Positions 1 through 3,000 of a DNA stretch of 5,362 bases are shown piece by piece. How positions within the stretch are numbered: the first letter of the stretch is position 1; every line of letters starts with the position of its first letter. The position numbers are program-made. The DNA comes from a virus (Duplodnaviria > Heunggongvirae > Uroviricota > Caudoviricetes), in the IMG/VR virus record IMGVR_UViG_2537562194_000008; one strand, 5' to 3'.

Positions 1-3000
1 TGCTGATTGATAAATGACAAACCTTTTACTACCTGCATTGAAAGAAGTAGACAAAACCAGACAATTATCATAACGAGCAAGAACATAATACCAACCATCA
101 TTATAATTAATCATTTCATATTCTTTCTTAAACTGTGGTTTGTAATATCCTGTCAGAAATGAAAAAAGCCAAAAATATGCCACAAAAGCAATCATCACAA
201 TCTCAAAAAAATGTTTTTTTATAAATGGCTTATCATAGAAGCATGATACCGATAAAAATCGCCCATAAGATCTTATCGAAATTGTAACCGCCAGCGCAAT
301 CGCTGCTGACAGTAGCAAAAGAGGTACCTGAATCTTCTGTCTCAATATAGAAAACTCAATAATTGCCGGCACAAACAATAATTCCACAGCAAAATAAAGG
401 CGAAATACATTTAGCTCTTGCATAGAATGTTTTCTTTTCACTGCGAAAAAGAATACAACACCAATACCCCAACCGATAAGAAATATAGCAATGACGATAA
501 CTGCAAAAAATAAACTTCTGGCAACATCATCAACACCTGCACCTACAATCCACCATGGGAAGCCGTAGTAAAAAGAAGTACCCCATCCATAGAAATAAGC
601 ACTCCCCCATCCAAGGCATCCCATGTAGGCAATAAAAAGTGAAGAACTCCTGAGCAGCGCACCATCCTTCATAACCACCCCAATACAAGATGATAACATT
701 GGCTTACAACTCATAACAAAAGCAATTCAATGCCGTCAAGAGGTTACAGGCTAAAAAAACTCTATTACATAGCAGCCAGCATGTTTACCGTACAAGTACA
801 ACTCAGGGCATAAAAAAAACCCACTCGGCAGCGGGTTTATACATTTTTTACAACATACCAAATTTGCATGAAGTATATGGCTTTTAATCCAGTTTTGCAA
901 TATTTTGCTGTAAAAATGCTGCCTTTTGTTTTGAACGTGTTCTCGTCACAAGCAATAAAGCATCACTATCAAGCTGTAGAAAAATGTGCTTCATTGCAAC
1001 CCAGCGTTCAGTAAATGTCTCGGACCAGTTTTTTGTTGTCACTCCCACCAATGATGCCAGTGTCTGGTATTCATAGGCCTCACGCCCTGCAAGTTCGCTC
1101 TTCACATCCTGTGCAGCCAGCCAGATTAACGTCTTCAGGCGATCCAGTGTCTTACCTGCAATTTTTCTGTTACTTAACAAATCTTTAAACTCGCTCCATG
1201 CCCATTGCGTTATGGTGACCTGATGCCCCCATCGAACGCTTTCGCTGTAACACCAAAGCAACCATGCTTTCTGATGTTCATCGAGAGACAAAACCGCGCG
1301 GCGCCATGAAGAGGTTGAGAATTCAACCGGGCTGACCAAAGCAATGGATGAACCTTTTGCGTACGACTGCTTACCGGAAGTCGGCGTATTATCCAGCGTA
1401 ATCATCTTGCCAGTTACCACATCCAGAATGCGCGGCTTCTTTCGTTTGTATGTACCAGTATCAAATTGTGCATGCTCCTGCCAGGCTTCGAGCTGGCCTT
1501 TCGTTGCTCCGTTCAAGTCAGCAGTAGCTGCCATAAGTTGCTCACGAACATACTGTAAATATTGGGTATTCATGCAGTAAATCCTTTCTATATTTTGGCA
1601 TAATTCTTCAACATTCGGTAATCGTTCAAAACCGAATCGGGGAAACGACATAAGCACACGAGCCCCCAGCGACAGCGAAGGAGTTCTGATATATAAGACT
1701 CAGACATCATTCATTCCCCGGTTCTCCAATATCTGTTTCACTCATCATCCATAACTACCTGTAATTGCCCCCCCCTTTTTTTGTAACAGTTCTTATATTG
1801 CTATATAGAATAGCCATTACTAATGCTTTTAAATTTAATAAAATAAAAATTATAAAAAACATAAAACACCACGCAAACACACTTAATAAAAACACCGTTA
1901 CATTAAAAGATAATAAAAACCGCAATAAAAAACGAATAAATCAATTGTCTCACGCAATTATAAAACATCATATTGATTACGCACCTTGTATTACAAACTC
2001 ATGTATGTAAAATACGCGCACCATTCAAAAAAAAGGAAGACAATAACATATGAAAAAAAGTGTCATCGCTGGCGTCTTTATTGCTCTGTCATTTACCACG
2101 TGTTCAGCTATCGCGAACAGCCTTGCATTATCATTAGCAAATGATGATGCAGGGAAGTTTCAACCAATACTTAATGATATTTATGGCAATAAACATGAAA
2201 ACAGAGATGATTACTCACAAGGCTTATTTCTGGGATATAGCCACGATATCTCAGACTCGAGCCAATTATCTCTCCATATTGCGCAAGATATTTACTCTCC
2301 ATCAGGCAGTAATAAAAGACACAACACAGCTGTAACTGGAGACAGAGCTTTTAGTGCATACACTCACACTGGTATTGAATGGAACTCCCTTGCGAATGAC
2401 TGGATTCGCTATCGATTAGGTACTGACATAGGTGTTGTTGGCCCCGACGCAGGCGGTCAGAAAGTACAAAATAAAGCTCATGAGATTATTGGGGCAGAAA
2501 AATATCATGCATGGGATGATCAAATAGAGAATCGCTACGGTTATACTGTAAAAGGGATGCTATCCATGACACCAAGTATGGATATTTTAGGTGCTAATGT
2601 TGGATTATACCCTGAAGTTTCTGCTGTTACTGGAAACTTATTTCAATATGTAGCATATGGCGCAACCATTGCCATTGGTAATGATAAAACCTTCAATTCG
2701 GATAATGGCTTTGGTCTGCTGGCTCCCCGTGGTTTAATGCATATGTCCGATACAAGCGGATTCAAATACAAGATTTTTGCAGGTATGGAAAGACGAGATG
2801 TCAATCGCAACTATACTCTCGAAGGAAAAACAATACAGACGAAACAAACAACAGTATCGCTAAACAAAACTGTTGATGAATATCAAGTTGGCGCAACAAT
2901 TGGGTATGCACCTGTAGCCTTCACACTAGCATTTAATAAAGTAACATCAGAATTCAAGACAGGGGATGACTATTCATTTATAAATGGAGCAATCACCTTC

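What the first reader, a model, noticed from the sequence alone, without database searches (positions are those of the whole stretch)
809..900. Compact promoter-plus-terminator module that looks like a Q-utilisation late promoter (PR'/tR')
A near-consensus sigma70 promoter (TTGCAA, 17 bp, TATACT) overlaps the stop codon of the 257-aa gene, and a strong intrinsic terminator lies only about 50 nt from the predicted TSS. This would produce a short terminated RNA unless antiterminated. That is the signature architecture of lambdoid late promoters, and it is the main sequence evidence that the 257-aa protein is a Q antiterminator. A -10-like TATGTT in the initial transcribed region could be the sigma-dependent pause element needed for Q loading.
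Basis: seen in the sequence. Interest (0 to 1): 0.5.

Follow-up and report, generated by a model that had tools for sequence, protein, structure and literature searches.

The report
Phage 82-type late promoter and terminator
This is the ordinary, well-understood "late gene switch" of a lambda-like prophage: a promoter, a built-in pause site and a terminator just after the gene for a phage 82-type Q antiterminator, and it is identical to the same stretch of the classical phage 434.

Summary
On the minus strand lie TTGCAA (900-895), a 17-bp spacer holding the Q stop codon, TATACT (877-872), a start at A865, an extended -10-like TGgTATGTT (860-852), and a hairpin (838-817) with a U8 tract, giving an RNA of about 54 nt.

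Pattern matching alone is not significant: 27% of shuffled windows also show a promoter-like site followed by a terminator-like site. Homology carries the case.
- The upstream gene belongs to Pfam PF06323, the Q82 family. It is 89% identical to phage 82 Q. Its true length is 229 aa, not 257.
- Window 700-960 is 100% identical to viable phage 434.
- In 24 Q82-family loci from many enterobacterial genera, the hexamers, their spacing and TG-n-TAT..T at +6..+14 are conserved in non-coding DNA.
- The register matches published phage 82 pR' landmarks.
- 25 of 26 loci have a terminator downstream.

There are three differences from phage 82. The terminator follows the +25 pause site directly ("short form"). 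Positions +15-17 read GTA, not GCC. An initial-transcript hairpin is missing.

The host prophage (E. coli O111 95NR1) is scrambled and lacks its early region, so the promoter probably makes only the short RNA there. This is a known kind of system and of low interest.

The parts
884..1573 (-). Q antiterminator gene of the phage 82 family (229 aa plus stop).
   Evidence: Pfam PF06323 at 306 bits. 89% identical, without gaps, to phage 82 Q CAA63332. Annotated as 690 nt in phage 434 and in RefSeq.
895..900 (-). -35 hexamer TTGCAA of the late promoter pR'. It lies inside the last Q codons (ATT GCA AAA = I-A-K).
   Evidence: TTGC is invariant and AA 92-96% conserved in 24 loci. Because it is coding, part of this conservation may be due to the protein.
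878..894 (-). 17-bp promoter spacer. It contains the Q stop codon (886-884) and is the probable location of the Q-binding element (QBE).
   Evidence: 15 of 17 positions are identical to the 82-like locus L003. The QBE is described as lying between -35 and -10, and within -31..+30 of 82 pR', in PMC4914094. It was not mapped at nucleotide level here.
872..877 (-). -10 hexamer TATACT (TATATT in most relatives), in non-coding DNA.
   Evidence: A-11 and T-7 are invariant.
865..865 (-). Predicted transcription start (+1, A), assigned by homology to phage 82 pR'.
   Evidence: The register is anchored by the published 82 pR' landmarks (+15-17 GCC, +25 U, extended -10-like element; PMC5001585), which are reproduced in L003.
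852..860 (-). Sigma70-dependent pause element: the extended -10-like sequence TGgTATGTT at +6..+14.
   Evidence: G+7, T+9, A+10, T+11 and T+14 are invariant in 24 loci. It occupies the same position as the experimentally defined element of 82 pR'.
840..841 (-). Predicted promoter-proximal pause site (+25 U / +26 A), where Q would load.
   Evidence: TGTA at +23..+26 is shared with the 82-like locus. The pause at +25/+26 is published for 82 pR'. It is inferred here, not measured.
849..851 (-). Position of the 'discriminator' +15..+17. It reads GTA here and GCC in phage 82. It is also the breakpoint of homology with most other Q82-type phages.
   Evidence: C+17 is conserved in 96% of loci and the window has A. 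BLAST matches of about 1,000 E. coli genomes and many phages stop at window 851. GCC-to-A mutations shorten the pause 2- to 5-fold (PMC5001585).
810..838 (-). Intrinsic terminator tR': stem 838-830 / 825-817, loop GCCG, U-tract 819-812. The terminated RNA is predicted to be about 52-56 nt.
   Evidence: Annotated as a terminator in phage 434 at the homologous place. Related terminators occupy the same position in L009, L018, L020 and L023 (CCCGC/GCGGG there, CCCGC/GUGGG here).
1..714 (-). First gene of the Q-dependent late transcript: a membrane protein with no Pfam family. Its start is ATG 714 or the annotated ATG 699. It runs off the window.
   Evidence: In the source genome and in phage 434 it is followed by a DUF3927 gene, a SASA-family esterase, a class II holin and an endolysin.

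Best explanation
Window 810-900 (minus strand) is the late-gene regulatory module of a lambdoid prophage whose antiterminator belongs to the phage 82 Q family.

Proposed mechanism:
1. Sigma70 RNA polymerase starts constitutively at A865.
2. Sigma70 rebinds the extended -10-like element TGgTATGTT (+6..+14), and the polymerase pauses at about +25/+26.
3. If Q is absent, the polymerase leaves the pause and terminates at the hairpin and U-tract that follow at once (+28..+49, U-tract to +54). This releases an RNA of about 54 nt.
4. If Q is present, it binds its DNA site in the promoter, engages the paused complex with help from NusA, and makes it terminator-resistant.
5. Transcription then continues into the membrane-protein, esterase, holin and endolysin genes.

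Shown here: the sequence elements, their homology and register with phage 82 pR', their conservation, and the identity of the Q protein. Inferred from phage 82 biochemistry and from the viability of phage 434: initiation at 865, the pause, Q loading and readthrough.

In the source strain the prophage is rearranged and has no early region upstream of Q. The module there probably yields only the short RNA, unless a compatible Q is supplied by another prophage.
For: - Q identity: PF06323 at 306 bits, and 89% identity to phage 82 Q over 229 aa. PF06323 is named as the Q82 family in PMC9388147.
- Window 600-1700 is 99.9% and window 700-960 is 100% identical to wild-type phage 434. [quoted passage not shown] A terminator is annotated there at window 810-835.
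- Alignment of 24 non-degenerate Q82-family loci (Q identity 59-99%) shows the following positions invariant: TTGC, the 17-bp spacing, A-11, T-7, T+4, G+7, TAT at +9-11, and T+14.
- Non-coding -18..+17 is as conserved as the Q coding sequence (0.68-0.77 against 0.69). Identity falls to 0.33 beyond +28.
- The numbering is anchored to the literature. Locus L003, whose Q is 99% identical to phage 82 Q, has GCC at +15-17, U at +25 and an extended -10-like element, as published for 82 pR' (PMC5001585).
- 25 of 26 loci carry a hairpin with a T-run after the start site, with unrelated sequences.
- Lysis genes lie downstream in the source genome, in phage 434 and in Sakai prophage Sp3.
- Short terminated pR' RNAs are documented for phages lambda, 21, phi80, 82 and P22 (PMC7547250).
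Against: - No transcript data for this locus were available.
- The hexamers and the terminator by themselves are not statistically unusual.
- Positions +16/+17 (T, A) depart from the GCC that supports pausing in phage 82. C+17 is 96% conserved. Mutating GCC to A shortens the pause 2- to 5-fold, so the pause may be weaker here.
- The QBE could not be located at nucleotide resolution. Conservation in the -35..-19 part is confounded by the overlapping Q codons and stop codon.
- An Hfq cross-linking survey of O157 Sakai listed no sRNA in the homologous Q-ECs0816 intergenic region (PMC4104026 supplement). That survey detects only Hfq-bound RNAs.
- In strain 95NR1, IS1203 and a rearrangement remove the early operon that would express Q.
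Confidence: 0.9

Rival explanations
1. The short pR'-tR' transcript of about 54 nt is itself a trans-acting regulatory RNA, like StxS from Shiga-toxin phages, and is not just a by-product of antitermination control. This reading is compatible with the best explanation and would be an added function.
For: - StxS is a precedent: it is a pR'-derived RNA that binds Hfq and regulates host genes, and its authors propose that antiterminated phage promoters are a rich source of sRNAs (PMC7547250).
- The predicted RNA has an AU-rich 5' part, a terminator hairpin and a U7-8 tail.
- The module is present and identical in 620 of 5,426 complete E. coli genomes, many of them EHEC. It persists in a defective prophage that can hardly use it for lysis.
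Against: - No Hfq-bound sRNA was called at the homologous site in Sakai Sp3. The calls in that prophage, EcOnc13 and EcOnc32, lie about 1.3 kb downstream.
- Beyond +28 the sequence is not conserved among family members; only the terminator function is.
- No target was sought or found.
Confidence: 0.12
2. The TTGC-N6-TTGC motif on the plus strand (895-908) is a CII-activated paQ-type antisense promoter directed into Q, as annotated in the phage 434 record. On this reading the palindromic TTGCAA belongs to that promoter and not to pR'.
For: The phage 434 GenBank record marks a CII site and a 'paQ -35' at the homologous position. TTGCAATATTTTGC matches TTGYN6TTGY exactly.
Against: - The motif is not enriched: 4 in the window against 1.6 expected, and 16 of 200 shuffles do as well.
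- It lies in Q codons.
- It is lost, or has the wrong spacing, in most non-E. coli family members (for example L005 and L008), whereas the minus-strand promoter elements stay conserved.
- No plausible -10 follows it at the right distance (sequence).
- It does not explain the conserved -10, the pause element or the terminator.
Confidence: 0.05
3. The hairpin and U-tract simply end the Q (delayed-early) transcript, and the promoter-like hexamers and -10-like element are chance matches.
For: Promoter-like and terminator-like patterns of this quality occur by chance in such AT-rich DNA.
Against: - The -10, the start region and the -10-like element are conserved at fixed spacing in non-coding DNA across genera, with identity falling to background straight after them.
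- The register is the same as the biochemically defined phage 82 pR'.
Confidence: 0.02

Closest known systems
Phage 82 late promoter pR'82 with Q82, its sigma70-dependent +25 pause and the downstream terminator (Roberts and Hochschild laboratories)
   Same: - The Q family is the same (PF06323, 89% identity).
- The -35 hexamer TTGCAA is identical, and the spacer is 17 bp with 15 of 17 positions identical.
- The -10 is of the TATAYT type, and the start region is the same.
- The extended -10-like element sits at +6..+14.
- TGTA lies at the +25 pause site.
- An intrinsic terminator comes before the late genes (PMC5001585, PMC4914094).
   Different: - +15-17 is GTA, not GCC.
- There is no hairpin in the +13..+37 region.
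- The terminator hairpin starts at +28, against about +50, so the terminated RNA is about 54 nt against about 80 nt.
- Morons lie between the terminator and the holin gene.
- The -10-like hexamer is TATGTT, against TATTTT.
Late promoter region of wild-type phage 434 (GenBank OL657226)
   Same: 100% identical over window 700-960 and 99.9% over 600-1700. The flanking lpxR, ylcG-like, Q, membrane-protein, DUF3927, esterase, holin and endolysin genes are the same.
   Different: - Phage 434 is a complete, viable phage. The window comes from a scrambled prophage cut by IS1203, with a different (82-like, rusA-type) nin region.
- The 434 record annotates the terminator and Q but not pR' itself.
Lambda pR'-tR' (6S RNA) and phage 21 pR' with their Q proteins
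   Same: The logic is the same: a constitutive promoter right after Q, a -10-like pause element, a QBE, a nearby terminator, a short RNA in lysogens, and readthrough into lysis genes when Q is present (PMC9388147, PMC7547250).
   Different: The Q proteins are unrelated in sequence (PF03589 for lambda, PF06530 for phage 21). The pauses are at +16/17 (lambda) and not +25, and the lambda RNA is 194 nt. No solved structure exists for the Q82 family.
StxS, the sRNA made from the terminated pR' transcript of Shiga-toxin phages
   Same: It is a short RNA made from an antitermination-controlled late promoter of an EHEC prophage and ended by tR' (PMC7547250).
   Different: StxS comes from a 258-nt transcript processed to 74 nt and has shown Hfq binding and targets. 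Nothing of the kind is shown for this RNA, and no sequence similarity was detected.

Membership tests
Q82-type late-gene antitermination module (phage 82 pR' / QBE / pause element / terminator) | A Q protein of the phage 82 family (Pfam PF06323) is encoded immediately upstream | tested here: met
   PF06323 at 306 bits, E = 1.7e-91. 203 of 229 residues identical to phage 82 Q.
Q82-type late-gene antitermination module (phage 82 pR' / QBE / pause element / terminator) | A sigma70 promoter overlaps the 3' end of Q, homologous to pR'82 | tested here: met
   TTGCAA-17-TATACT aligns without gaps to TTGCAA-17-TATATT of the 82-like locus. It is conserved in 24 loci.
Q82-type late-gene antitermination module (phage 82 pR' / QBE / pause element / terminator) | A -10-like pause-inducing element with an extended -10 TG lies in the initial transcribed region, upstream of +15 | tested here: met
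   TGgTATGTT at +6..+14, with invariant G+7, TAT and T+14. The description of the 82 element is in PMC5001585.
Q82-type late-gene antitermination module (phage 82 pR' / QBE / pause element / terminator) | A G/C-rich discriminator (GCC) lies at +15-17 and supports the pause | tested here: not met
   The window has GTA, so only G+15 is kept. C+17 is present in 96% of relatives. The same GTA is present in viable phage 434, so it is evidently tolerated.
Q82-type late-gene antitermination module (phage 82 pR' / QBE / pause element / terminator) | The pause site has U at +25 | tested here: met
   T at window 841 is +25. TGTA at +23..+26 matches the 82-like locus. This is a sequence match only; the pause itself was not measured.
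Q82-type late-gene antitermination module (phage 82 pR' / QBE / pause element / terminator) | A Q-binding element is present in the promoter DNA | tested here: inconclusive
   The spacer is 15/17 identical to the 82-like locus. The exact QBE bases were not available: the template figure of PMC4914094 is not held, and conservation is confounded by the overlapping Q codons.
Q82-type late-gene antitermination module (phage 82 pR' / QBE / pause element / terminator) | An intrinsic terminator lies between the pause site and the late genes | tested here: met
   9-bp stem plus U8, dG about -12 kcal/mol, z = -3.6. 25 of 26 relatives have one.
Q82-type late-gene antitermination module (phage 82 pR' / QBE / pause element / terminator) | Lysis and late genes lie downstream on the same strand | tested here: met
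   A membrane protein, a DUF3927 gene, an esterase, a class II holin and endolysin RrrD follow in strain 95NR1 and in phage 434.
Q82-type late-gene antitermination module (phage 82 pR' / QBE / pause element / terminator) | Q-dependent terminator readthrough and a sigma70-dependent pause are demonstrated | not testable with these tools
   This needs in vitro transcription or reporter assays.
Rfam RF02074 STnc240 sRNA | A covariance-model score at or above the gathering threshold (55 bits), and the yeeY-yoeI genomic context | tested here: not met
   28.2 bits, E = 0.41. STnc240 is a core-genome sRNA lying between yeeY and yoeI (bioRxiv 10.1101/2021.10.18.464853). The match is driven by the terminator.

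The most novel reading that the evidence does not exclude
There are two linked possibilities.

First, the 'short-form' pR' RNA of about 54 nt may have been kept as a trans-acting regulatory RNA in the manner of StxS. It is made constitutively even from this crippled prophage, and it is identical in hundreds of EHEC genomes.

Second, the short-form / long-form split seen here may reflect a so far undescribed functional RNA or DNA element of Q82-type antitermination. All 21 long-form loci carry a hairpin over +13..+37, built from at least three different sequences. All 5 short-form loci put the terminator there instead.
Probability: 0.12. Interest if true: 0.45.

Novelty: already known. Interest (0 to 1): 0.15.

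Why it matters
The finding confirms that this stretch is the textbook late-gene switch of a lambdoid prophage. It allows correct annotation in O111/O157-type EHEC prophages of the following:
- Q as 229 aa, of the Q82 family;
- pR', with its start at 865;
- the pause element;
- tR'.

Two practical points follow:
- The exact module is shared with phage 434 and with 620 of 5,426 complete E. coli genomes.
- It is a natural Q82-type variant in which the terminator follows the pause site directly and the GCC discriminator is absent. That could make it a convenient minimal template for studying the one Q family that still has no solved structure.

None of this is surprising to a specialist.

Tried and rejected
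- Rfam scan: the only match was STnc240, at 28 bits against a threshold of 55. STnc240 proved to be an unrelated core-genome sRNA, so I rejected it as a terminator-driven chance match.
- Printed phage 82 pR' sequence: two full-text sequence searches returned only unrelated primers, and the supplement of PMC4914094 is not held. I anchored the numbering instead through a prophage whose Q is 99% identical to phage 82 Q, together with the published landmarks.
- Solved structures: there is no PDB relative of the Q protein.
- CII/paQ reading of TTGCN6TTGC: the motif is neither enriched nor conserved.
- In vivo evidence: Tree et al. 2014 list no Hfq-bound sRNA at the homologous Sakai site. HnrS (EcOnc10-12, 66 nt, in Sp9/10/12) is not described as pR'-derived, and no link was found.
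- RNAalifold on the +1..+44 region of long-form loci gave no common-register structure. The hairpins appear only when each sequence is folded on its own.
- Chance test of promoter plus terminator: not significant.
- I did not test whether another Q82-family Q gene in strain 95NR1 could act on this promoter in trans.
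Full report
**What is in the sequence**

Coordinates below are on the minus strand.
- The last codons of a long ORF read ...CAG CAA AAT ATT GCA AAA CTG GAT TAA, with the stop at 886-884.
- TTGCAA (900-895) lies inside those codons.
- Seventeen base pairs further on lies TATACT (877-872).
- Seven bases after that lies A865.
- The transcript would begin AAAUUUGGUAUGUUGUAAAAAAUGUAUAAACCCGCUGCCGAGUGGGUUUUUUUUAU.
- TGgTATGTT (860-852) is an extended -10-like sequence.
- AAACCCGCU-GCCG-AGUGGGUUU (838-817) is a 9-pair hairpin followed by the rest of a U8 run (819-812).

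The consensus scanner reports both the promoter and the terminator. The 56-nt RNA folds to -15.3 kcal/mol, with z = -3.6.

**Is it more than chance?**

By pattern alone it is not.
- The promoter is a 9-of-12 match. The window holds 9 such sites, against 12.1 +/- 4.2 in shuffles.
- I re-implemented the same rules and asked for a promoter-like site followed within 20-80 nt by a terminator-like site. At least one such pair turns up in 27% of dinucleotide shuffles.

Everything therefore depends on comparative evidence.

**Identity of the upstream gene**

- The ORF matches Pfam PF06323 (Phage_antiter_Q) at 306 bits. PMC9388147 names PF06323 as the Q82 family, one of three unrelated Q families.
- From ATG 1573 it is 229 aa long and 89% identical, without gaps, to phage 82 Q.
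Both the phage 434 and the RefSeq annotations use the 229-aa form.
- No relative has a solved structure.

**Identity of the module**

- Window 600-1700 is 99.9% and window 700-960 is 100% identical to wild-type phage 434. A terminator is annotated there at the homologous position.
- Phage 434 is a plaque-forming phage, so this exact sequence must support late gene expression. This step is an inference.

**Comparison across the family**

I collected 26 Q82-family loci from E. coli genomes, phage records and one representative genome per species. Their Q proteins are 59-99% identical to the window's.
- With Q oriented forward, all have TTGCAA (two have TTGCRG), a 17-bp spacer, a TATATT-like -10, and TG-n-TAT..T at a fixed distance. 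Two copies with a frameshifted Q have a 1-nt deletion.
- In the 24 non-degenerate loci the invariant positions are TTGC, A-11, T-7, T-6, T+4, G+7, T+9 A+10 T+11 and T+14.
- Mean pairwise identity is 0.69 in the last 60 nt of Q coding sequence, 0.68 in non-coding -18..-1, and 0.77 in +1..+17.
- Beyond that point it falls to 0.46 in +18..+27 and 0.33 beyond +28. Non-coding DNA that is as conserved as the gene, and that ends sharply after the -10-like element, indicates function.

**Anchoring to experiment**

Locus L003 (E. coli 13TMH22) encodes a Q that is 99% identical to phage 82 Q and has the phage 82 gene order. I numbered from the A that lies seven bases after its -10.
- It has TG at +6/+7.
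- It has TATTTT at +9-14.
- It has GCC at +15-17.
- It has U at +25.

These are exactly the landmarks published for 82 pR': an extended -10-like element, a +15-17 GCC discriminator, and a pause at +25/+26 with a terminal U (PMC5001585). The window aligns to L003 without gaps through this region. So A865 is +1, TATGTT is the pause element, and T841/A840 are +25/+26.

**Terminators**

- 25 of 26 loci have a G+C-rich hairpin with a T-run after the start site, built from unrelated sequences.
- There are two architectures. In 'long-form' loci, including the phage 82-like one, the hairpin lies at about +42..+79. In five 'short-form' loci (the window, Superficieibacter L009, Scandinavium L018, an Enterobacteriaceae isolate L020, and Citrobacter L023) it lies at +28..+49, straight after the pause site.
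- The short-form terminators are related to one another (AACCCGCC....GCGGGTT). The window has one G-U pair where the others have G-C.
- BLAST shows the recombination joint. About 1,000 E. coli genomes and many phages share window 851-960 only, that is the Q 3' end through +15. Phage 2B8 shares only 700-837, the terminator and what follows it.

**Differences from phage 82**

1. +15-17 is GTA, not GCC. C+17 is otherwise 96% conserved. GCC-to-A mutations shorten the 82 pause 2- to 5-fold, so a shorter pause is plausible here. Phage 434 evidently tolerates it.
2. Every long-form locus has an inverted repeat. Its 5' arm overlaps +13..+19 and its 3' arm lies at +30..+37. At least three sequence solutions exist (TGCCA/TGGCA, GTCG/CGAC, GCTGCC/GGCGGC), and the short forms have none. 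RNAalifold found no common register. I found no description of this hairpin in the papers I read and leave it as a passing observation.
3. Morons (a membrane protein, a DUF3927 gene and an esterase) separate tR' from the holin gene.

**Genomic context**

- The window is 100% identical to E. coli O111:H- strains 95NR1 and 95JB1.
- The prophage sits next to ybhC and is scrambled. The integrase gene abuts the endolysin gene. The lysis-Q-nin block is inverted relative to the head and tail genes. IS1203 cuts the nin region after ninE. No repressor, replication or pR region is present.
- Q therefore has no obvious means of expression in cis. In this strain the module probably makes only the short RNA, unless another resident prophage supplies a compatible Q; this was not tested.
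- O157:H7 Sakai prophage Sp3 carries the same module with a T7 run in place of T8. Its predicted start is at 900,033.

**Mechanism**

- Sigma70 holoenzyme starts at 865.
- Sigma region 2 recaptures TGgTATGTT, and the complex scrunches and pauses at +25/+26.
- Q bound to promoter DNA joins the paused complex, helped by NusA, and renders it terminator-resistant.
- Unmodified complexes terminate at +52..+56.

This is the phage 82 mechanism (PMC5001585, PMC4914094, PMC9388147), transferred here by homology. Whether Q82-type proteins use the 'nozzle' mechanism of Q21 and Q-lambda is an open question in the field, and this locus does not answer it.

**Rival explanations**

- A StxS-like sRNA role for the short RNA is possible and is not exclusive of the main explanation. 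However, no Hfq-bound sRNA was called at the Sakai site, and the sequence beyond +28 is not conserved.
- The CII/paQ annotation on the opposite strand rests on a motif that is neither enriched nor conserved.
- Pure coincidence is excluded by the conservation pattern.
- The weak Rfam match to STnc240 is a terminator artefact.

**Verdict**

This is a known kind of element, in a sequence already present in a classical phage. Interest is low. The only mildly new points are the short-form architecture, the GTA variant and the long-form hairpin.

Noticed in passing
L003-L008, L010-L017, L019, L021, L022, L024-L027, positions about +13..+37 after the pR' start (absent in window 853-829): All 21 long-form Q82-family late promoters carry an inverted repeat or hairpin. 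Its 5' arm overlaps the end of the -10-like pause element and the GCC discriminator, and its loop is centred on the +25 pause site. At least three different sequence solutions exist. All 5 short-form loci, including the window, lack it and place the terminator there instead.
   Followed up: partly
window 3153-3224 (-): An N-terminal fragment of a lambda-type Q antiterminator lies directly after ninH. It is annotated as a pseudogene in RefSeq and in phage 434. This shows that the lpxR / ylcG-like / Q82 / pR' block replaced an earlier lambda-type Q gene.
   Followed up: partly
window 2050-3009 (+): A lipid A deacylase LpxR gene (Pfam PF09982, 137 bits) is inserted as a moron on the opposite strand, between ninH and Q. 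It sits in very AT-rich flanks. The same arrangement is found in phage 434 and in O157 Sakai Sp3 (lpxR, ECs_0814).
   Followed up: partly
window 5074-5362 (+) and L028: An IS1203/IS629 (IS3 family) transposase gene starts at 5074 and cuts the nin region after ninE. In strain 95NR1 the prophage at ybhC is scrambled: the integrase gene lies next to the endolysin gene, the early region is missing, and head genes lie beyond the IS.
   Followed up: partly
window 895-908 (+): TTGCAATATTTTGC matches the CII-binding consensus TTGCN6TTGC and overlaps the palindromic -35 hexamer of pR'. It is annotated as 'paQ -35' in the phage 434 record. It is neither enriched over chance nor conserved outside E. coli.
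   Followed up: yes
window 851 (= +15 of the transcript): There is a sharp recombination joint. About 1,000 E. coli genomes and many phage records share only window 851-960 (the Q 3' end through the pause element). Phage 2B8 shares only 700-837 (the terminator and the downstream gene). This illustrates that Q, its promoter and its pause element travel as one unit, separately from the terminator.
   Followed up: partly
window 690-719 (-): A second promoter-like site (TTGTTA, 18 bp, TG-TATCAT) overlaps the start of the downstream membrane-protein ORF, whose start is ATG 714 or 699. It could be a moron promoter or a chance match.
   Followed up: no
L029 (O157:H7 Sakai) 16267-16808; record 901,332-901,662: The published Hfq-bound sRNAs EcOnc13 and EcOnc32 lie in the ECs0816-ECs0818 intergenic region of Sp3. 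That is downstream of the membrane-protein gene, which is homologous to window 1-714, and so just outside this window.
   Followed up: no
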